From: Candidatus Dormiibacterota bacterium
Lineage (GTDB): Bacteria > Chloroflexota > Dormibacteria > Aeolococcales > Aeolococcaceae
Direction of reading: 5' to 3'
DNA: 64,000 nucleotides
Assembly: GCA_963718525.1 (NCBI GenBank)
Contig: OY970355.1
Coordinates: forward strand, 2,112,001-2,176,000
Shown: one piece after another, positions 30,824 to 37,191 of the stretch
How positions within the stretch are numbered: the first letter of the stretch is position 1
Layout: every line of letters starts with the position of its first letter
Translations under genes and position numbers: made by a program
The notes under the pieces: generated by a model
Database searches by the model: none
Seen by the model: the letters and a program-made list of their open reading frames with translations, nothing else
What the model was told of the DNA's origin: nothing

Positions 30824-31453
30824 ATGCGATCGAGATTCTGGTATCTGGTAGGCGGCCTGGTCGTGGCAGGGGTGGCGGTCGGGTTCTTCGTGACCCGGTT
30901 CCTCAACCCGACGCCGCCGCAGATCACGGCTACCACGACGTCGGAGACCCTCCTGGGCCGCCCAGTCGTGAACTTCACTCTGACTACGGTCGCCGCCGTC
31001 GGCACCGCCGGTCAGGGAAATGGCGCGCATCCGAACTGGGTCGGCTATCTGCCCACCACCTATCTCAAGGTCCCTGCCGGGGCCGTCGTGCACATGACCA
31101 TCGATCAGCAGGACGGTCAGACCGGGCTCCGGAATGAATACCTCGGCCTTGTCAGAGGCACGATCAACAACCAGATGACTGTGGACGGCAAGGTCATGGG
31201 CGCGATCGATCCGTCTCTCGCTGCCCACACGTTCACCGTCCCGGACCTCGGACTGAGCGTTCCATTGGAGGGTGTCCCGGCGAACGCCGCAGCCAACGCG
31301 CAGATCGTGATCGAGTTCAGCTTCGTGGTGCCCGACAAGCCCGGCCTCTTCCGGTGGCAGTGCTTCGTCCCCTGTGCCGCGGGGACGCTCTACGGCAACG
31401 GCGGCCCAATGCAAACGCTCGGCTACATGGCCGGCGAGCTCCAGGTGGGCTGA
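30824..31453 (+). CDS. Membrane-anchored cupredoxin-like protein
   Basis: N-terminal TM helix; LKVPAGAVVHMTI, AHTFTVP, FSFVVPDKPGLFRWQCFVPC...PMQTLGYMAGELQV; first gene of the cox operon. Confidence 0.75.
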   Translation: MRSRFWYLVGGLVVAGVAVGFFVTRFLNPTPPQITATTTSETLLGRPVVNFTLTTVAAVGTAGQGNGAHPNWVGYLPTTYLKVPAGAVVHMTIDQQDGQTGLRNEYLGLVRGTINNQMTVDGKVMGAIDPSLAAHTFTVPDLGLSVPLEGVPANAAANAQIVIEFSFVVPDKPGLFRWQCFVPCAAGTLYGNGGPMQTLGYMAGELQVG

Positions 31454-31455
31454 CG

Positions 31456-32295
31456 ATGAGAAATCGAGCAGCGACCGGCCGGTTGGGGGTTGCCATCTGG
31501 ATCGTGGTTGCCGTCCTCGGCGACATCGCTCTAGCTCTCGCCCCCATCCCGCCCGGGCAGGCAGCGACCCTCGCGTCCGATGAGAGCGAGGTCATCAGGA
31601 TCCTCGCGATGGCCGGCTGGCCGATCTTCTTCGGCGTGTTGATGGGTCTCTACTTCATGCTCTTCTTGAATCGCGTCGCCCCTTCCGAGCGCGAGGTACC
31701 GCCCGGCGAACTCAGGGGCAACTCGCGTCTCCAGACGACGTGGATCGTCACGAGCGTAGTTCTGGTGCTCATCCTCGCCACCTATGGGACCGTCGAGCTC
31801 GCGAATGAGGAACCCGGAGCCGGGGTCCCGACTTCTGCGACGGCGCTTTCGCTTCCCACGTCCCCGAGCCAGCCGCTCGAGGTCCAGGTCATTGCACAGC
31901 AATGGTGGTTCACGTACAGGTATCCAGCGTATGGCGGCATCGAGACAGCGCAACTTGTGCTGCCGGTCGGGCAGAAGATTGAGTTCAATGTCACTTCCCT
32001 CGACGTCGTTCACTCCTTCAACTTCTTTGCGCTGGGCGTGAAAGCTGACGCTGTGCCCCTCAACGACAACGTCGTGTCGTCGACTCCAACCGAGATCGGA
32101 ACCTACAGGGTCCAGTGCACGGAGCTCTGCGGTCTCTGGCACGGAAACATGTCGGACAACACGGCGATGGTCGTGAGCCAGTCGGATTTTGCGTCCTGGA
32201 TACAACAGCAGACCGCGCTTGACGCACCGATCATGAAATATCTGCTGCCGTACAGCCACACGTACGAACCATCGCCAGTCGTCTACGGCCACTGA
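31456..32295 (+). CDS. coxB: Cytochrome c oxidase subunit II (CuA)
   Basis: Two TM helices, VQVIAQQWWFTYRY, SLDVVHSF, CTELCGLWHGNM; no fused cytochrome c. Confidence 0.93.
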   Translation: MRNRAATGRLGVAIWIVVAVLGDIALALAPIPPGQAATLASDESEVIRILAMAGWPIFFGVLMGLYFMLFLNRVAPSEREVPPGELRGNSRLQTTWIVTSVVLVLILATYGTVELANEEPGAGVPTSATALSLPTSPSQPLEVQVIAQQWWFTYRYPAYGGIETAQLVLPVGQKIEFNVTSLDVVHSFNFFALGVKADAVPLNDNVVSSTPTEIGTYRVQCTELCGLWHGNMSDNTAMVVSQSDFASWIQQQTALDAPIMKYLLPYSHTYEPSPVVYGH

Positions 32296-32330: not shown

Positions 32331-34253
32331 GTGGATGCTGTAACCCCGACGCGCCCGCCGATATCTACTCGGCCGACGCTGGCACGCCGGCTCAACGAGT
32401 GGGGGCTGCTGCTTGGGGTCATTGGTGCGGTGATCGGTTTCCTCCTCGGGTTCTGGATTGGCAACCTGGCGATTGCCAACTCGTTCAGCACGGACAACTC
32501 GCTTGGTTCCGACCCGGGGATCCTGCTCGGCTATACCCTGAGCGTCGTTGGCTTCCTCGCCGGGATGGGCTTTCTCAACTACCCGATCGGCCGCCTGCTG
32601 GGCGCGAGGCGGCCTTCCGAGGAGGACAACGCCTACATGCACGGCGAGGGTGGCGGCTTGAGCCGCTACTTCCGCATGACGACCGATCACAAGGTGATCG
32701 GTTTGCAATACCTCATGATGATCCTCGCCTTCCTGTTCATCGGTGGATTGGGTGCGATGTTCATCAGGAGTGAGCTCCTGACGCCGGTGCCATCGGTCGC
32801 CAACGCGCAGTCGTACCTGACACTGGTGGGATTGCACAGCACGCTGATGATCTTCATGGCCTCAGCGGCGATCATCGGGCCGTTCGGCAACTACTTCGTC
32901 CCGATCATGATCGGGTCGCGCAACATGGCGTTTCCCCAACTCGAAGCGCTGACGTTCTGGCTGCTGCCGCCTGCGGGTCTGATTCTGTTGTCCACCGTGT
33001 TCCTCGGCGGATTCACGACCGGTTGGACGGGCTATGCCCCGCTCTCCGATCAGAACGTTCTCGGCATGGACGCGTACCTGATGGCATTTGCCTTGATCGG
33101 TCTCTCAATCGGCCTATCAGGTCTGAATATGATCGCGACCATTGTCACCAAGCGCCATCCCGGCATGCCATATAGCCGGATGCCGGTGTTCGTCTGGGGG
33201 GTGTTGGTCACTTCATTCCTTGGCCTTCTCGCCTCTCCGGCACTCATCGTCGCGGTGCTGATGGAGATGTTCAGCCGGACATATCAGACGACATTCTTCG
33301 TGCCCGCGGGCGGTGGCTCGCCGTATCTGTGGGAGAACCTGTTCTGGTTCTTCGGCCATCCAGAGGTCTACATCTTCGTCATTCCCGCGTTCGGACTGAT
33401 CATGGAGATGCTGCCCGCGTTCACCCGCAAGCCGCTGTGGGGGTACCGCGTGTCGATCGGCGGCATGGTGGAAGTCGGTCTCCTGAGCTTCACCGTCTGG
33501 CAGCACCACCTGTTCGTGAGCGGCCTGGCACCGTCGTTGCGCCCGTTCTACATGTTCTCAACAGAGCTGATCTCAGTTCCGACGGGCATCATCTATCTCA
33601 TCGCGCTGGGTTCGATGTGGCGAGCGCGCACCCGCTTCAGCACTCCGATGCTCTTCATCTGCGCATTCTTTTTCAACTTCCTGATCGGAGGATTCACTGG
33701 TGTTTTCCTCTCAGACGTCCCGAGTGATTTCACGCTGCACGCCAGCTACTTCGTTCAGGCTCACTTCCACTACACCATCATGGGTGGCGAGGTGTTCGCG
33801 CTCATGGCTGGGATCGTGTACTACCTTCCAAAGATGACGGGCGTGTCCATGGACACCAAGCTACTGAAGTTCCAATTCTGGGCGGTCTTTCTCACTTTCA
33901 ACGGAACGTTTCTCTCGCTGATCGCGGTCGGCATCATGGGTATGACGCGCCGCGTGATCAGTTATGCGCCCTATCTGCAACCGCTCAACGTCTCGGCCTC
34001 CATTTTCGCATTCGGCCTCGGAGCATCAATGGCGCTGTTCCTTGGAATCTTGATCTGGCAGGCCGCGATCAAGAAAGTGCCGGCTACGACCAACCCGTGG
34101 GAATCGCTGGGTGTCGAATGGCAGCTGCCGACGCCGGTTCCGATATTCAACTTCGACAAGGTGCCGACAGCCTGGTCGCTGCCGTACAACTACGACACCG
34201 GTAAGCCGGCGGCGGAGTTCGGCCCGGTTGTACCGGCCTTCGGTGGAGCGTGA
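32331..34253 (+). CDS. coxA: Heme-copper oxidase subunit I with N-terminal TM extension
   Basis: TTDHKVIG, GLHSTLM, GWTGYAPL, WFFGHPEVY, WQHH, AHFHY, MTRR. Confidence 0.95.
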   Translation: MDAVTPTRPPISTRPTLARRLNEWGLLLGVIGAVIGFLLGFWIGNLAIANSFSTDNSLGSDPGILLGYTLSVVGFLAGMGFLNYPIGRLLGARRPSEEDNAYMHGEGGGLSRYFRMTTDHKVIGLQYLMMILAFLFIGGLGAMFIRSELLTPVPSVANAQSYLTLVGLHSTLMIFMASAAIIGPFGNYFVPIMIGSRNMAFPQLEALTFWLLPPAGLILLSTVFLGGFTTGWTGYAPLSDQNVLGMDAYLMAFALIGLSIGLSGLNMIATIVTKRHPGMPYSRMPVFVWGVLVTSFLGLLASPALIVAVLMEMFSRTYQTTFFVPAGGGSPYLWENLFWFFGHPEVYIFVIPAFGLIMEMLPAFTRKPLWGYRVSIGGMVEVGLLSFTVWQHHLFVSGLAPSLRPFYMFSTELISVPTGIIYLIALGSMWRARTRFSTPMLFICAFFFNFLIGGFTGVFLSDVPSDFTLHASYFVQAHFHYTIMGGEVFALMAGIVYYLPKMTGVSMDTKLLKFQFWAVFLTFNGTFLSLIAVGIMGMTRRVISYAPYLQPLNVSASIFAFGLGASMALFLGILIWQAAIKKVPATTNPWESLGVEWQLPTPVPIFNFDKVPTAWSLPYNYDTGKPAAEFGPVVPAFGGA

Positions 34254-34858
34254 GCATGGGGGACGTCAGCCCGACCGGACTCACCGTCATCGACGAGGTC
34301 GCTGGAGGCGAACGCACGCTGGCCTTCGGCTCGCGGTTGGTCATGGCTGCGAACACAACCCTTCAGCTGAGCCTCCTCTTCGCATTTCTCTACCTGCGCG
34401 CGAACAACTTCGGCGGGATGTGGCACCCGAGCGGGGTCGGCACGCCACCTCAAGTGCTCGCGCTCGTCGCCTTGGCGTTTCCGTTGCTGACGCTCCTCGC
34501 CCTCTGGGGAGTCTGGAGCGGCCTGAGCAGGGCACGCGAATCCAGCGCGGTGTCGGGGTTGCTGTGGCTAGCTCTCCTGGGCGCGATCCTCACCGGGGCG
34601 GTGCGCATTCTCCTGATGTACCAGTTCAATTGGGAGCTCTTCAGCGCAGGCACGTATGCTGACCTGGCGACCTTGTGGTACGCGGTGCTATGCGCAGAGT
34701 TCATCGGGGTCGGTCTGTGGTTGTTGAGCCTTGTGATGGGGCACGTGCGCCGTACCGACCCACTGAGCACCGCACACGCCCGAGCCGTTCTGGAGCAGTG
34801 GACGTACATCACCGGCGTCTCGATCGCGGTGTACCTGCTGGTCCAGTACGTCACGTAG
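34250..34858 (+). CDS. coxC: Heme-copper oxidase subunit III-like (short, about 5 TM)
   Basis: Position after subunit I with GTGA overlap; LLFAFLYLRA.N; about 5 hydrophobic segments; divergent. Confidence 0.65.
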   Translation: MSMGDVSPTGLTVIDEVAGGERTLAFGSRLVMAANTTLQLSLLFAFLYLRANNFGGMWHPSGVGTPPQVLALVALAFPLLTLLALWGVWSGLSRARESSAVSGLLWLALLGAILTGAVRILLMYQFNWELFSAGTYADLATLWYAVLCAEFIGVGLWLLSLVMGHVRRTDPLSTAHARAVLEQWTYITGVSIAVYLLVQYVT

Positions 34859-34864
34859 GCCGGC

Positions 34865-35704
34865 ATGCTCTGGCGATCGCTGCTCGACTGGAGCTTCGAA
34901 CCAGTACCCATCGTAGGGTGCGCGACGGCCGCCTACCTCTACTGGCGCGGGCGGCGGACCGCGTCGCCGGCGTTGGGACGCTCGGCATCGTGGGACAACG
35001 GGGACACGGCGTTCGCACTCGGCATCGCAGCGCTCATGCTCGCCCTGGTGTCGCCGATCTCGTACTTCGATACCACGTTCCAGTGGGACCACATGGTGCA
35101 GCACGTGCTGCTGCTGCTGGTCGCTCCTCCGCTCATCCTGCTCGCAGACCCGTTTCGAACGGCGTGGGCTGGTTATCTCGCCGCGCAGGGAAGGCCCGCC
35201 TCGGTCGAAAACACCTGGCCCGCGCGCATGATGCGAATCCTCCACACGGGGCCGAAGGCGGCGATCGTCGTGGTCCTCGTGTTCAGTGTCGACCTCCTGG
35301 TCTGGCACCTCCCGGCTATCTACAACGCGACGCTCCGGCTTGCGTCGGTGCACGATCTTGAGCATCTGAGCTTTCTCGTCGTCGGTCTCCTGTTCTGGGA
35401 CCAGGTGATCAGCTCGGTCAAGGCGACCGAGCGGCTCTCGATGCTGGGTCGCGCGGTCGTGGTCCTGGCGGGGATGTTTGTGAGCTGGGGTCTCGCAATC
35501 GTCATCGCTTATGCGACGCAACCGCTGTACGCGTACCCCGTGACCCAGGGCGGGCTCAGCCTCCTGGGAGATCAGGAGATCGCCGCGGGTGTGATGTGGG
35601 TCCCGGGAGGCACGCCCTTCGTGGTCGCACTGCTCTACCTTGGCATCCGGTGGTTCGAGATCGACGACCGCTCCGCGGGCAGCACCGTGGTGACTCAGCC
35701 ATGA
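34865..35704 (+). CDS. ctaG: CtaG-like cytochrome c oxidase assembly factor (caa3_CtaG family)
   Basis: SPI, HMVQHVLLLLVAPPL, WHLPAIY, HDLEH, DQEIAAGVMW. Confidence 0.88.
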   Translation: MLWRSLLDWSFEPVPIVGCATAAYLYWRGRRTASPALGRSASWDNGDTAFALGIAALMLALVSPISYFDTTFQWDHMVQHVLLLLVAPPLILLADPFRTAWAGYLAAQGRPASVENTWPARMMRILHTGPKAAIVVVLVFSVDLLVWHLPAIYNATLRLASVHDLEHLSFLVVGLLFWDQVISSVKATERLSMLGRAVVVLAGMFVSWGLAIVIAYATQPLYAYPVTQGGLSLLGDQEIAAGVMWVPGGTPFVVALLYLGIRWFEIDDRSAGSTVVTQP

Positions 35705-36229
35705 GCAGGAAACCTCGTCTCGTGTTCGGCTGTGCCTTGGCATTGCTAGTCGCCGGGTGCGGCGGCCCGCACCTTCCTGCGAGTGCGTCGCAGCCTGTTA
35801 CGGCGTCGGGGGGCCCAACCCTGACCGGCAAGGACGTGAGCATCACGTCGTTCCGCGGGCATCCCGTGGTCTTGATTTTCTGGGCGTCGTGGTGCGGACC
35901 CTGCCATGATGAGCAGCCGGCGTTGAACACGTCGTATACAGCGTGGCTGTCTCGCGGCGTCGTGTTCCTGGGGATCGACCTGCGTGACACGACGGCACCC
36001 GCGCTCGCATTTCAGACGGCGTTCAAGGTGCCGTATCCCAGCATTGCGGACACGAACGCCACACTCGCGGTCGACTACCGTATTCCGTCGGCGCCCGCGT
36101 TGGTCTTTCTCAACACTCAGGGCAAGGTGGCCGATGTTGTCCTAGGAGGAACTCGGAACCATGAGCGTCGCCGCCTTCAATGCGGAGATCACCGCCCTCC
36201 TGGGCACGTCGACGACAGGAAGCGCATAG
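35701..36229 (+). CDS. TlpA/ResA-like thioredoxin lipoprotein; as sequenced it reads in-frame into ctaB, probably through a 1-nt insertion near 36151
   Basis: Lipobox LVAGC and FWASWCGPC. Removing one A gives VLGGLGTMSVAAFNAEITALLGTSTTGSA* with TAG at 36227-36229. Confidence 0.8.
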
Positions 36230-36237
36230 GAGCGGGA

Positions 36238-37191
36238 ATGCAAACCAGCGCAGAGATCGCGATGAGCCCGACGGACACCATTGGCGGGGCGGCAGCTGCT
36301 GATGCGGTCCAACTCGGTGCTTGGATGCAGCTCCGCTCACGCGCGCGCGACTACGTCAGTCTCGCCAAACCGCGAATCATCGTCCTTCTTCTGATCACGG
36401 AGCTCGCCACGATGATCATCGCCGCGCGTGGTATTCCATCGCTCGGCTTGCTCGTCTGGTCGGGGGTCGGCGGCGCGCTCGCTTCCGGGGGCTCCGGAGC
36501 GATCAACTGCTGGTATGACCGTGATATCGATCGGGTCATGGCACGGACCTGCAGCCGGCCGCTTCCATCGGGACGCATCCTGCCATGGCGGGCACTCACC
36601 TTCGGCGTCACGCTGATCGCCGCTTCGGTGATGGTGTTCGTGCTCGCGGCGAACATCCTGGCGGCCGCGCTCGCCCTGGGCGGCGCGCTCTTCTACGTCT
36701 TCATCTACACGATGTTGTTGAAGCGCAGAACCCCGCTCAACATCGTCATCGGCGGAGCTGCCGGCGCGTTTCCTCCGCTGGTCGGCTGGGCCGCGGTGCG
36801 CGGCGATGTCGGATGGCTCGCGTTCGTGTTGTTCGCGTTGGTCTTTCTCTGGACACCGCCGCACTTCTGGTCGCTCGCCTTGCTCCTGCGTCGTGACTAC
36901 CGGAATGCCAGCGTGCCGATGCTTCCCGGCATCATCGGCACCGCCCGGACCCACCGGCGGATCCTCTTCTACCTGCTGGCTCTGATCCTCGCGAGCCTGC
37001 TACCAGGACTGGTGCTGGGCATCGGGTACACGGTCGGAGCTGGCCTGCTCGGCGGTGGATATCTGGCGCTCGCGCTCTGGGCCCGCGCCAAAGCAACATC
37101 AGGCGCGGCCGCGTTGCTCTTCCATTACTCGCTGGCCTATCTCGCGCTCATCTTCGTCGTGGGCGCGGTGAGCGCGGTGGCGCTGGGCTAG
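36238..37191 (+). CDS. ctaB: Heme O synthase (protoheme IX farnesyltransferase)
   Basis: LAKPRI, NCWYDRDIDRVMART..RPLPSG, YTMLLKRRTPLNIVIGG, LWTPPHFWSL, DY..ASVPMLP; own SD (AGGAG) before the ATG at 36238. Confidence 0.92.
   Translation: MQTSAEIAMSPTDTIGGAAAADAVQLGAWMQLRSRARDYVSLAKPRIIVLLLITELATMIIAARGIPSLGLLVWSGVGGALASGGSGAINCWYDRDIDRVMARTCSRPLPSGRILPWRALTFGVTLIAASVMVFVLAANILAAALALGGALFYVFIYTMLLKRRTPLNIVIGGAAGAFPPLVGWAAVRGDVGWLAFVLFALVFLWTPPHFWSLALLLRRDYRNASVPMLPGIIGTARTHRRILFYLLALILASLLPGLVLGIGYTVGAGLLGGGYLALALWARAKATSGAAALLFHYSLAYLALIFVVGAVSAVALG

What the first reader, a model, noticed from the sequence alone, without database searches (positions are those of the whole stretch)
32900..33780. 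Subunit I lacks both the D-channel Asp and the K-channel Lys yet keeps GHPEVY
Seen: GSRNMAFPQLE where canonical A1 enzymes have GAxDMAFPRxN (D->N at 32922-32924, plus N->E); TELISVPTGII where they have IAVPTGVK (K->I at 33591-33593, with a Glu upstream in the same helix); LHASYF where they have LHDTY. All six His ligands, the cross-linked Tyr and the gating Glu are intact. Knowledge: in Rhodobacter/Paracoccus oxidases the D->N change abolishes pumping and K substitutions cripple turnover. Inference: the enzyme uses rewired proton uptake routes (the new Glu residues are candidates) or is a non-pumping or low-stoichiometry oxidase.
Basis: partly seen in the sequence, partly recalled or inferred. 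Interest (0 to 1): 0.72.

Follow-up and report, generated by a model that had tools for sequence, protein, structure and literature searches.

The report
Oxidase with relocated proton-entry carboxylate
This soil-bacterium gene encodes an intact oxygen-reducing respiratory enzyme from an already catalogued lysine-less lineage, in which the acid that normally collects protons at the mouth of the main proton channel has moved seven residues inward, a natural counterpart of laboratory rescue mutants that I could not find described in print.

Summary
CoxI (32331-34253, 640 aa) has Asn at the D-channel Asp, Glu at the Asn seven residues later, Ile at the K-channel Lys, Glu nine residues before it and Ala at the Mg-site Asp. 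All six His, the Tyr and the gating Glu are intact.

These are not errors. In 120 of 120 closest proteins and 77 of 77 readable genome loci the Asp position is N/G/R/Q/S and the inner position is Glu. The Lys position is always I/V/L and the helix-VIII Glu is invariant. These proteins form one clade (SH-aLRT 100) in Dormibacterota, Chloroflexota and Actinomycetota.

Loss of the K-channel in this '2TM' COX1 lineage is published (Degli Esposti et al. 2021), and that paper reports the D-channel as unchanged. The moved D-channel acid therefore looks undescribed in print. Earlier notes of this scan saw the same change on other DNA.

It mirrors the rescue mutants D135N/N142D (E. coli bo3) and D132N/N139D (R. 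sphaeroides), which restore proton uptake or pumping. I read it as a working oxidase fed by a rewired D-channel and probably still pumping. No biochemistry exists.

Novelty: new variant of a known kind.

The parts
30824..31453 (+). Membrane-anchored cupredoxin-like protein (209 aa) directly upstream of coxB. It is the positional and weak structural counterpart of AcoP ('cup') of the rus operon.
   Evidence: No Pfam or NCBIfam hit. Found upstream of coxB in 73 of 80 related loci. H135, C180, C184, M196 and M202 are invariant and H69 is at least 90% conserved in 25 sequences. The profile hits AcoP 7z3g at E 0.11, below significance. The AF2 model (pLDDT 79.4) has AcoP 7z3i_A as best Foldseek hit, E 2.4e-4, with low TM scores of 0.27/0.39.
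31456..32295 (+). Subunit II (CoxB) with an intact CuA site and no cytochrome c domain. Gln93 (31732-31734) stands where the K-channel entry Glu lies (E78 in P. denitrificans).
   Evidence: PF00116 E 1.2e-16. TIGR02866 scores 123.2 bits, below its 147.7 cut-off. The motif H..C.E.C...H..M is conserved. The entry-Glu column reads Q 64, A 6, S 4, R 1, with 3 gaps, in 78 rows and is never Glu, while the genome's A2 paralogue has Glu there.
32331..34253 (+). Subunit I (CoxA/CtaD), 640 aa, A-family heme-copper O2 reductase of the '2TM' lysine-less lineage.
   Evidence: PF00115 E 4.3e-122. TIGR02891 scores 516.9 bits, below its 670.75 cut-off.
32403..32567 (+). Two extra N-terminal transmembrane helices (residues 25-48 and 62-79) before canonical helix I.
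   Evidence: DSSP of the AF2 model. Matches to solved chains begin at about query residue 104-116.
32922..32924 (+). Asn198 at the D-channel entry Asp position (D135 E. coli, D132 R. sphaeroides).
   Evidence: The column reads N 58, G 30, R 30, S 2 of 120 and R 39, N 32, G 5, Q 1 of 77. It is never Asp or Glu.
32943..32945 (+). Glu205 at the 'Asn gate' position (N142 E. coli, N139 R. sphaeroides). This is the proposed relocated entry carboxylate.
   Evidence: Glu in 120 of 120 and 77 of 77. The column is Asn in 61 of 61 canonical A1 representatives. One origin on the tree.
33363..33365 (+). Glu345, the gating Glu of GHPEVY (E286), retained.
   Evidence: Glu in 119 of 120 and 78 of 78.
33564..33566 (+). 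Glu412 in helix VIII at the M353 position, followed by Ser415 at the A356 position. A candidate internal proton relay replacing the Lys.
   Evidence: Glu in 120 of 120 and Ser in 120 of 120, and 78 of 78 each. Glu here never co-occurs with Lys362 in 137 representatives.
33591..33593 (+). Ile421 at the K-channel Lys position (K362).
   Evidence: I 105, V 15 of 120. I 61, V 15, L 2 of 78.
33741..33743 (+). Ala471 at the position of the Asp of the LHD motif. I recall that Asp as a ligand of the Mg/Mn site (D412 in R. sphaeroides).
   Evidence: A 80, G 40 of 120. The column is Asp in 55 of 61 canonical A1. The adjacent His is kept in 120 of 120.
34250..34858 (+). Small membrane protein (202 aa) in the coxC position, with no detectable similarity to COX3.
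   Evidence: No Pfam or NCBIfam hit. A profile of 18 sequences finds no oxidase subunit in the PDB. Found by BLASTP in 42 of 80 loci.
34865..35704 (+). Caa3-type CtaG assembly factor.
   Evidence: PF09678 E 1e-42. Present in 67 of 80 loci.
35596..37191 (+). TlpA/ResA-like thiol-disulfide oxidoreductase region followed by heme O synthase CtaB. The window reads them as one open frame.
   Evidence: AhpC-TSA/Redoxin at residues 74-187 and UbiA at 265-513. NF003349 heme o synthase E 9.5e-100. The two parts are separate frames in all 45 relatives printed.

Best explanation
This is a functional, vertically maintained A-family heme-copper oxygen reductase (CuA subunit II plus a subunit I with heme a, heme a3-CuB and the cross-linked Tyr). 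It is the second oxidase of a Dormibacterota genome.

Shown: it belongs to the published lysine-less '2TM' COX1 lineage. The lower half of its K-channel is dismantled: subunit II entry Glu -> Gln, S299 -> Met/Leu, K362 -> Ile/Val, S365 -> Val/Ile.

Shown: within that lineage one clade has lost the entry Asp of the D-channel (now N/G/R/Q/S). The same clade has fixed a Glu seven residues later, at the first turn of helix III in the Asn-gate constriction. The neighbouring S142-equivalent became Thr and the N207-equivalent became Thr/Ser.

Inferred: Glu205 now serves as the proton-collecting carboxylate of a still continuous D-channel. The tyrosine and asparagine that I recall as D-channel members (E. 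coli Y61 and N124) and the conserved T211 are kept, up to Glu345. This single channel supplies the pumped protons and most or all of the chemical protons.

Inferred from published rescue mutants: because D135N/N142D and D132N/N139D recover uptake and pumping, the enzyme most likely still pumps.

Inferred more weakly: the invariant Glu412-x-x-Ser415-x-x-Thr418 stripe on helix VIII, leading towards Tyr347, replaces Lys as the proton relay next to the binuclear centre during its reduction.
For: - Residues and equivalences.
- Conservation: 120 of 120 proteins and 77 of 77 or 78 of 78 readable genome loci.
- One clade with SH-aLRT 100 and one origin of Glu139. Its sisters keep Asp and Asn but already lack Lys.
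- Subunit II entry Glu absent in all 75 rows with a residue in that column.
- Other D-channel residues kept.
- All metal ligands, Tyr and Glu286 kept.
- Confident model that superposes on 1m56_A.
- Conserved operon with CtaG, CtaB and the cupredoxin.
- A match of at least 80% identity in 22 of 24 same-genus genomes.
- Literature passages read: D135N of E. coli bo3 is rescued by moving Asp to 139 or 142, and D132N of R. sphaeroides by N139D (PMC3840923). D132N/N139D restores full pumping (PMC7196763). Asn121/Asn139 form the constriction next to Asp132 (PMC4321873).
- Glu353 and Lys362 never co-occur (0 of 137). Glu353 with Ser356 also appears in a second K-less clade that lies apart on the tree.
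Against: - No activity, H+/e- ratio or structure exists for any member.
- The single change N139D (N131D in P. denitrificans, N99D in yeast) uncouples pumping (PMC7196763). A carboxylate at this site can therefore abolish pumping in the wrong electrostatic context.
- About half of the clade has Arg, not a neutral residue, at the old Asp position. This differs from the laboratory double mutants.
- The natural residue is Glu, not Asp.
- I could not read model coordinates, so the orientations of Glu205 and Glu412 relative to the water chain, Tyr347 and CuB were not measured.
- On a helical wheel Glu412 is about 180 degrees from the Lys position and about 9 residues nearer the P side. It may therefore not lie in the K-path at all.
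- The Glu353/no-Lys association rests on only 3 independent contrasts (sign test p about 0.25).
Confidence: 0.6

Rival explanations
1. The enzyme reduces O2 but is uncoupled or has low stoichiometry. A carboxylate in the Asn gate, as in N139D, raises the pKa of the gating Glu, so only chemical protons are taken up and energy is conserved by charge separation alone. It would serve as a fast or low-backpressure oxidase beside the coupled A2 enzyme.
For: N139D, N131D and N99D are fully uncoupled at normal or raised turnover (PMC7196763). The genome keeps a canonical A2 oxidase next to cytochrome b and c genes, so a second enzyme could specialise. The Asp that I recall as a Mg-site ligand and several P-side positions are also changed.
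Against: Uncoupling in N139D comes with an extra negative charge beside Asp132. Here the Asp is gone, and the matching double mutant is reported to pump again. The gating Glu is under strict selection: 119 of 120 and 78 of 78.
Confidence: 0.25
2. Glu412 has nothing to do with proton delivery. It tunes or stabilises the CuB/heme a3 site, for example by hydrogen-bonding near Thr411 and a His ligand. The protons for the reductive phase come from the D-channel through Glu345, as all protons do through the one channel of B-type oxidases.
For: Glu412 is nine residues towards the P side of the Lys position and on a different helix face (helical geometry). It sits beside the conserved Thr at the T352 position. 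The lower K-path is wholly hydrophobic, so no route from the N side to Glu412 is evident.
Against: Glu353 is strictly exclusive with Lys362: 0 of 79 Lys-bearing representatives have it, against 29 of 58 Lys-less ones. It recurs together with Ser356 in a second Lys-less clade. Both facts point to a functional link with the loss of Lys.
Confidence: 0.3
3. The gene is a decaying or mis-assembled copy and the odd residues are errors.
For: The reading frames of the downstream TlpA-like gene and CtaB differ from those of all relatives printed, so the assembly may carry local errors. Q203 differs from the contigs of four runs.
Against: The frame is intact at 640 aa. The key residues are identical in 120 protein clusters and about 77 species genomes. 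All ligands are intact. No listed contig difference falls on the key codons.
Confidence: 0.01
4. It is not an O2 reductase in vivo but, for example, an NO reductase derived from an oxidase.
For: New NOR families did arise from oxygen reductases with altered channels (PMC11214002, passages read).
Against: Those NORs have altered active sites and lack the Tyr cofactor. Here the three CuB His, the cross-link Tyr and CuA are all kept.
Confidence: 0.03

Closest known systems
COX1 subclade '2TM Chloroflexi & Actinobacteria' (includes Ca. Dormibacter) of Degli Esposti et al. 2021, Front Microbiol (PMC8239418; main text sections 11-12, passages of supplementary file 2 and all of Table_3 read)
   Same: Two extra N-terminal TM helices. 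An HPEVY motif although the group is classed as A2. K354 replaced by V/I/L ('modified', 'KC' or 'hybrid' K-channel). COX2 E78 replaced. caa3_CtaG in the cluster. A Ca. Dormibacter protein is listed with K354->V and COX2 E78->A. Locus L025, from a MAG with the same isolate name, falls in my clade.
   Different: The legend of a supplementary tree figure (found in supplementary file 2) states that no significant change in D-channel composition was seen. The 2020 preprint says the D-channel residues are essentially conserved. Here the entry Asp is lost and a Glu is fixed at the N131/N139 position in every member examined. The helix-VIII Glu is not among the columns tabulated in that paper.
Laboratory second-site rescue mutants: E. 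coli bo3 D135N with Asp moved to 139 or 142, and R. sphaeroides aa3 D132N/N139D
   Same: No acid at the loop position and a carboxylate at the N142/N139 position. This is exactly the column where the natural clade has Glu.
   Different: The mutants carry Asp in an otherwise canonical enzyme with an intact K-channel and subunit III. The natural enzyme has Glu, often Arg at the old Asp site, Thr at the S142 and N207 equivalents, no K-channel Lys and no recognisable subunit III.
rus-operon aa3 oxidase (cup-coxB-coxA-coxC-coxD) of Acidithiobacillus and other acidophilic iron oxidisers
   Same: A lysine-less COX1 with the COX2 entry Glu replaced (preprint 10.1101/2020.03.01.968255, passages read). 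A cupredoxin gene lies directly upstream of coxB (gene order from PMC10654088). The cupredoxin here has AcoP as its best fold and profile match.
   Different: Those enzymes are reported to keep the D-channel residues. No cyc2, cyc1 or rus genes lie beside this operon (ORF list). The cupredoxin here has a C-x3-C motif and lacks the His that I recall as a ligand in AcoP. I did not align a rus-operon CoxA myself.
Actinobacterial CtaD of the bcc-aa3 supercomplex (C. glutamicum 7q21_D, M. smegmatis 6adq_F), the closest solved structures
   Same: Same fold and cofactor ligands: E about 1e-112, and 39-41% identity with rmsd 2.0 A to 7q21_D in the Foldseek alignments.
   Different: Those chains have the canonical Asp, Asn and Lys, and no extra N-terminal helices.
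B-family oxidases (T. thermophilus ba3), which work with a single proton channel
   Same: A precedent that a heme-copper oxidase can deliver all protons through one channel (PMC11214002, passage read).
   Different: B-type enzymes keep a K-analogue and lack the D-channel and the gating Glu. Here it is the reverse.

Membership tests
A-family heme-copper oxygen reductase, subunit I | COX1 fold with six His ligands, the helix-VI cross-link Tyr and a CuA subunit II partner | tested here: met
   PF00115 E 4.3e-122. H169, H343, H392, H393, H478, H480 and Y347 invariant. CuA motif in CoxB. Fold match to 1m56_A with TM 0.90.
A1 subtype (Pereira/Sousa definition, PMC3084760 Table 2) | Gating Glu in helix VI (E278 Pd / E286) | tested here: met
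   GHPEVY with Glu345.
A1 subtype (Pereira/Sousa definition, PMC3084760 Table 2) | D-channel residues Asp124, Asn131 and Asn199 (Pd numbering) | tested here: not met
   The three columns read Asn198, Glu205 and Thr273. The Asn113 and Tyr35 equivalents are kept. Matching Pd Asn199, Asn113 and Tyr35 to E. coli columns is from my recall of the numbering.
A-type K-channel (PMC3084760 Table 2) | Lys354, Thr351, Ser291 and Tyr280 (Pd), plus the COX2 entry Glu78 | tested here: not met
   Lys -> Ile421, Ser -> Met358 and COX2 Glu -> Gln93. Thr418 and Tyr347 are kept.
A2 subtype | A Tyr-Ser motif (YSHPxV) in place of the gating Glu | tested here: not met
   The protein has FGHPEVY. The genome's other oxidase (L001) has YSHPAVY. 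Degli Esposti et al. nevertheless file this lineage under A2 on phylogeny.
'2TM Chloroflexi & Actinobacteria' COX1 subclade (PMC8239418) | Two extra N-terminal TM helices | tested here: met
   AF2 helices 25-48 and 62-79 ahead of the canonical core.
'2TM Chloroflexi & Actinobacteria' COX1 subclade (PMC8239418) | HPEVY in TM6, no canonical K-channel, and the taxa Chloroflexi, Acidimicrobiia and other Actinobacteria, and Ca. Dormibacter | tested here: met
   L025 carries the isolate name used in that paper's table.
NCBIfam TIGR02891 CtaD_CoxA (equivalog) | Score at or above the curated cut-off of 670.75 bits | tested here: not met
   516.9 bits.
B-family oxygen reductase | No D-channel and no gating Glu, with an alternative K-channel (Thr, Ser, Tyr) | tested here: not met
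   The gating Glu and most D-channel residues are present. The tree places the protein inside the A family.
AcoP-type cupredoxin (for the upstream gene) | A single-domain cupredoxin with an N-terminal anchor, encoded upstream of coxB, with a His/Cys/His/Met copper site (ligand set recalled) | tested here: inconclusive
   Position and fold agree. The sequence match is below significance, E 0.11. The second His is not conserved and an extra Cys is invariant.

The most novel reading that the evidence does not exclude
A widespread soil-bacterial branch of A-type oxidases is a true single-input proton pump of a new design. All eight protons per O2 would enter through a D-channel whose antenna carboxylate sits inside the Asn gate (Glu205). 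A helix-VIII Glu (Glu412, with Ser415 and Thr418) would take over the role of the K-channel Lys as the proton relay and charge compensator next to the binuclear centre. If so, neither the loop Asp nor the Lys is needed for full coupling.
Probability: 0.3. Interest if true: 0.75.

Novelty: new variant of a known kind. Interest (0 to 1): 0.55.

Why it matters
Asp132 and Lys362 are the two residues that name the proton channels of A-type oxidases. Work on model enzymes treats both as essential. This clade is common in Dormibacterota, Chloroflexota and Actinomycetota assembled mostly from soil, mire and bog samples. Evolution has removed both residues there while keeping the gating Glu and the whole active site under strict selection.

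The D-channel change reproduces in nature the second-site rescue found in the laboratory. That gives a ready-made system to ask three questions. Which electrostatic arrangement at the channel mouth permits pumping? Can an A-type enzyme run on one input channel? What does the recurrent helix-VIII Glu do?

It also corrects the published statement that the D-channel is unchanged in this lineage. And it warns annotators that channel-residue classifiers would mis-sort these enzymes.

Tried and rejected
- **Model coordinates.** I could not read them, so no distances or channel analysis were possible for Glu205 or Glu412. Only DSSP, pLDDT and whole-chain superpositions were available.
- **Expression.** No RNA holder was listed for the operon.
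- **Association test.** The independent-contrast test of Glu353 against Lys loss gave only 3 contrasts, all in the same direction, p about 0.25. It cannot be decided.
- **Family searches.** Pfam and NCBIfam, even at E up to 10 for Pfam, gave nothing for the upstream cupredoxin or for the 202-aa membrane protein. A profile of the 202-aa protein found no oxidase subunit III in the PDB, so calling it 'CoxIII' is rejected.
- **Literature.** Searches for a natural or engineered Asn->Glu change at this site found no oxidase paper (N139E, N131E, N142E, N98E, N99E, N80E). Searches on D- and K-channel variants found only the Degli Esposti papers for this lineage. Degli Esposti 2020 (BBA), cited there, is not in the library and was not seen. 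Supplements of the bioRxiv preprint were not seen.
- **NOR comparison.** The NOR motif HH-x-Ar-Ar-x17-E (PMC3084760) puts its helix-VIII Glu at +21 from the second His, whereas Glu412 is at +19. I do not claim equivalence.
- **Errors and pseudogene.** Both are rejected by conservation.
Full report
**What is there.** The finding lies in a 640-aa ORF (32331-34253, +) that is a heme-copper oxidase subunit I (PF00115, E 4.3e-122).
- Asn198, AAC, 32922-32924
- Glu205, GAA, 32943-32945
- Glu345 in GHPEVY, 33363-33365
- Glu412, 33564-33566
- Ile421, ATC, 33591-33593
- Ala471 in LHASYF, 33741-33743

**Equivalences.** HMMER alignments to the closest solved chains have no gaps around the motifs (C. glutamicum 7q21_D, M. 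smegmatis 6adq_F, E about 1e-112). They pair Asn198 with the entry Asp, Glu205 with the Asn seven residues later, and Ile421 with the K-channel Lys.

I fetched E. coli cyoB from NC_000913.3. I checked that its D135, N142, E286, Y288, T352, M353, T359 and K362 are where the literature numbers them, and aligned it with the query. The result is N198=D135, E205=N142, E345=E286, Y347=Y288, M358=S299, E412=M353, S415=A356, T418=T359 and I421=K362. Papers link E. coli D135 to R. sphaeroides D132 and P. denitrificans D124, and R. sphaeroides N139 to P. denitrificans N131 and yeast N99 (PMC7196763). Garcia-Horsman's position 142 in E. coli is cited beside N139D of R. sphaeroides (PMC3840923). Bovine numbers (D91, K319) are recalled, not tested.

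An AlphaFold2 model built on 47 sequences (pLDDT 84.8, pTM 0.88) superposes on R. sphaeroides subunit I (1m56_A) at 1.8 A over 546 columns. It puts Asn198 in the II-III loop and Glu205 in the first turn of helix III. It also shows two extra N-terminal helices (25-48 and 62-79).

**Not chance, not error.** The 120 closest protein clusters are 54-100% identical (P0001 plus P0003-P0121, with the identical P0002 dropped). In them:
- the Asp column is N 58, G 30, R 30, S 2
- the inner column is Glu 120 of 120
- the Lys column is I 105, V 15
- the M353 column is Glu 120 of 120
- the gating Glu is kept in 119 of 120
- the Mg-site Asp column is A 80, G 40

A scan of one genome per species returned 80 loci. 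Of these, 77 have a readable AFP anchor; L038, L039 and L055 were unreadable because of frame breaks in my ORF picks. The Asp column is R 39, N 32, G 5, Q 1 and the inner column is Glu 77 of 77. Of the 78 loci with a readable helix VIII (L034 and L048 unreadable), Glu353 and Ser356 are 78 of 78 and the Lys column is I 61, V 15, L 2.

Contigs of four soil runs from one study cover the gene. None of the listed differences falls on the key codons. That list was cut (83 further differences not shown), and one run may be the source sample.

**Where it sits in the family.** I built a 64-row tree (IQ-TREE quick search, LG+C20, SH-aLRT only). It used 26 of the 80 loci plus the window, 35 of the 150 representatives, the paralogue and E. 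coli CyoB.

The 27 Glu139 rows form one clade with support 100. Parsimony needs one origin of Glu139 and two losses of the acid at position 132. The nearest branches (P0122, P0123, P0161; P0133, P0139) already lack Lys and have the helix-VIII Glu. P0122, P0123 and P0161 keep Asp and Asn. So the K-channel loss is older and the D-channel change is a later, single event.

Record titles place the clade in Ca. Dormibacterota, Chloroflexota and Actinomycetota. The Actinomycetota include Solirubrobacterales, Gaiellales, Acidimicrobiales, Streptosporangiaceae, Acidothermaceae and Nocardiopsaceae. A few MAGs are labelled otherwise.

**The rest of the two channels** (120 family members against 61 canonical A1 representatives).

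In the D-channel:
- the Tyr (E. coli Y61) and the first Asn (N124) are kept (114 and 117 of 120)
- T211 is kept in 120 of 120
- S145 becomes Thr in 117 of 120
- the column that is Asn in 37 of 61 canonical rows (I take it as N207 of R. sphaeroides, from recall) becomes Thr 106 or Ser 10
- one Ser/Thr column (E. coli T201) becomes Ile or Leu

In the K-channel:
- S299 becomes Leu or Met
- K362 becomes Ile or Val
- the next polar column becomes Val 82, Asn 19 or Ile 14 of 120
- the conserved Trp366 becomes Ala, Gly or Ser
- T352, T359 and Tyr288 are kept

In subunit II the CuA ligands are intact. The entry-Glu column is Q 64, A 6, S 4, R 1 with 3 gaps in 78 rows, and never Glu. The genome's other CoxB has Glu there.

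**What was already known.** Degli Esposti et al. 2021 (PMC8239418; I read sections 11-12, passages of supplementary file 2 and all of Table_3) define a COX1 subclade '2TM Chloroflexi & Actinobacteria'. It includes Ca. Dormibacter and has two extra TM helices, HPEVY and a 'modified/KC/hybrid' K-channel. They list a Ca. Dormibacter protein with K354->V and COX2 E78->A.

My locus L025 carries the same isolate name. It agrees at four of the five positions I could compare (K354, T351, S357 and COX2 E78; at S291 I read Leu and the table says Met). It has Gly at 132 and Glu at 139.

[quoted passage not shown] So the K-channel loss is published. The moved D-channel acid and the helix-VIII Glu are not described there. 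My searches found no other paper on them. Degli Esposti 2020 (BBA) is outside the library and was not seen.

Earlier notes of this scan describe the same two changes in actinobacterial genomes (e1-2838970, e1-5205550). They also pointed me to the 2021 paper (e1-3861326). I treated them as leads and re-derived everything here.

[quoted passage not shown] D132N leaves about 4% activity. N139D alone uncouples the pump at normal or raised turnover. The double mutant D132N/N139D is reported to restore full pumping (PMC7196763). In E. coli bo3, D135N is rescued by moving the Asp to 139 or 142 (PMC3840923).

The natural clade has exactly this arrangement: no acid in the loop and a carboxylate at 142/139. 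I therefore infer that Glu205 is the proton-collecting group of a working D-channel and that the enzyme probably pumps.

The lower K-path is hydrophobic in both subunits. The D-channel is therefore the only evident input.

The helix-VIII Glu is a candidate replacement for Lys on the following grounds:
- Among 137 representatives with a readable helix VIII, Glu353 never co-occurs with Lys362. The counts are 0 with both, 29 with Glu only, 79 with Lys only and 29 with neither.
- Glu353 with Ser356 recurs in a second Lys-less clade that branches inside A1 (P0236, P0241, P0260, P0263, P0264, P0267).

Only three independent contrasts exist, so this is not statistically decidable. By helix geometry Glu412 lies about two and a half turns nearer the binuclear centre and on another face than the Lys. 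A role in tuning CuB is a live rival.

**Context.** The operon is cupredoxin - coxB - coxA - 202-aa membrane protein - ctaG - tlpA-like - ctaB. In the 80 loci I found the cupredoxin in 73, coxB in 77, ctaG in 67, ctaB in 61 and the 202-aa protein in 42. Several misses are contig ends.

The genome (one contig, 3.34 Mb) has one other subunit I, an A2-type enzyme (YSHPAVY) with canonical Asp, Asn and Lys. It lies within about 2-4 kb of a cytochrome c gene and a cytochrome b gene.

Of 24 same-genus genomes, 22 have a match of at least 80% identity to this protein. The two without are 79% and 63% complete. Overall 40 of 41 genomes searched have some match. Three of those 41 (G027, G032, G036) are unpublished, and without them the tally is 37 of 38. 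No other claim rests on them.

**Verdict.** The lysine-less state is known. The relocation of the D-channel carboxylate is a conserved, single-origin, apparently unpublished variant that copies a laboratory rescue. Function is inferred, not shown.

Noticed in passing
window 30824-31453 (+): An unannotated membrane-anchored cupredoxin sits directly upstream of coxB and is present in 73 of 80 related loci. H135, C180, C184, M196 and M202 are invariant (a C-x3-C motif like CuA, but without the following His). Its best profile and fold matches are AcoP of A. ferrooxidans, both weak. The position matches 'cup' in the rus operon (cup-coxB-coxA). It may be the electron donor or a partner of this oxidase.
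   Followed up: partly
window 35596-37191 (+): The TlpA/ResA-like thioredoxin region and the heme O synthase CtaB read as one 531-aa frame here. In all 45 relatives printed they are two separate frames, including the 98%-identical L004. This is either a local indel in this assembly or a strain-specific fusion. The TlpA-like part has a lipoprotein-like start near 35701, overlapping the ctaG stop.
   Followed up: partly
window 32937-32939: Gln203 (FPQLE) replaces the Arg that almost all relatives and canonical oxidases have (FPRxN/E). Contigs of all four soil runs read G at 32938, which gives Arg. L004 and L079 also have Gln.
   Followed up: partly
window 34250-34858 (+): A 202-aa membrane protein sits in the coxC position with no similarity to COX3 by Pfam, NCBIfam or a PDB profile search. 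R29, N35, R50, N53, W58, E150 and E182 are invariant. BLASTP found it in 42 of 80 loci, mostly Dormibacterota. Subunit III influences D-channel uptake in model enzymes, so this protein may matter for the rewired entrance.
   Followed up: partly
G000:C1:291149-298037 (L001 and beyond): The genome's other oxidase is an A2-type coxB-coxA with a CtaA-like gene. A cytochrome c domain gene (296039-296236) and a cytochrome b gene (297486-298037) lie a few kb away. This looks like the main bc-oxidase chain.
   Followed up: partly
proteins P0236, P0241, P0260, P0263, P0264, P0267 (and P0235 with Gln): A second Lys-less clade branches inside A1-type oxidases. It has also acquired Glu at the M353 position and Ser or Thr at A356, while keeping the canonical Asp and Asn of the D-channel. 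This suggests convergence on a helix-VIII Glu.
   Followed up: partly
window 33738-33743 and P-side positions: The Asp that I recall as a ligand of the Mg/Mn site is Ala or Gly throughout the clade, while the adjacent His is kept. Several other clade-specific changes cluster around helices VII-VIII: Gln before the HH pair, Tyr at F348 and Trp at F311.
   Followed up: no
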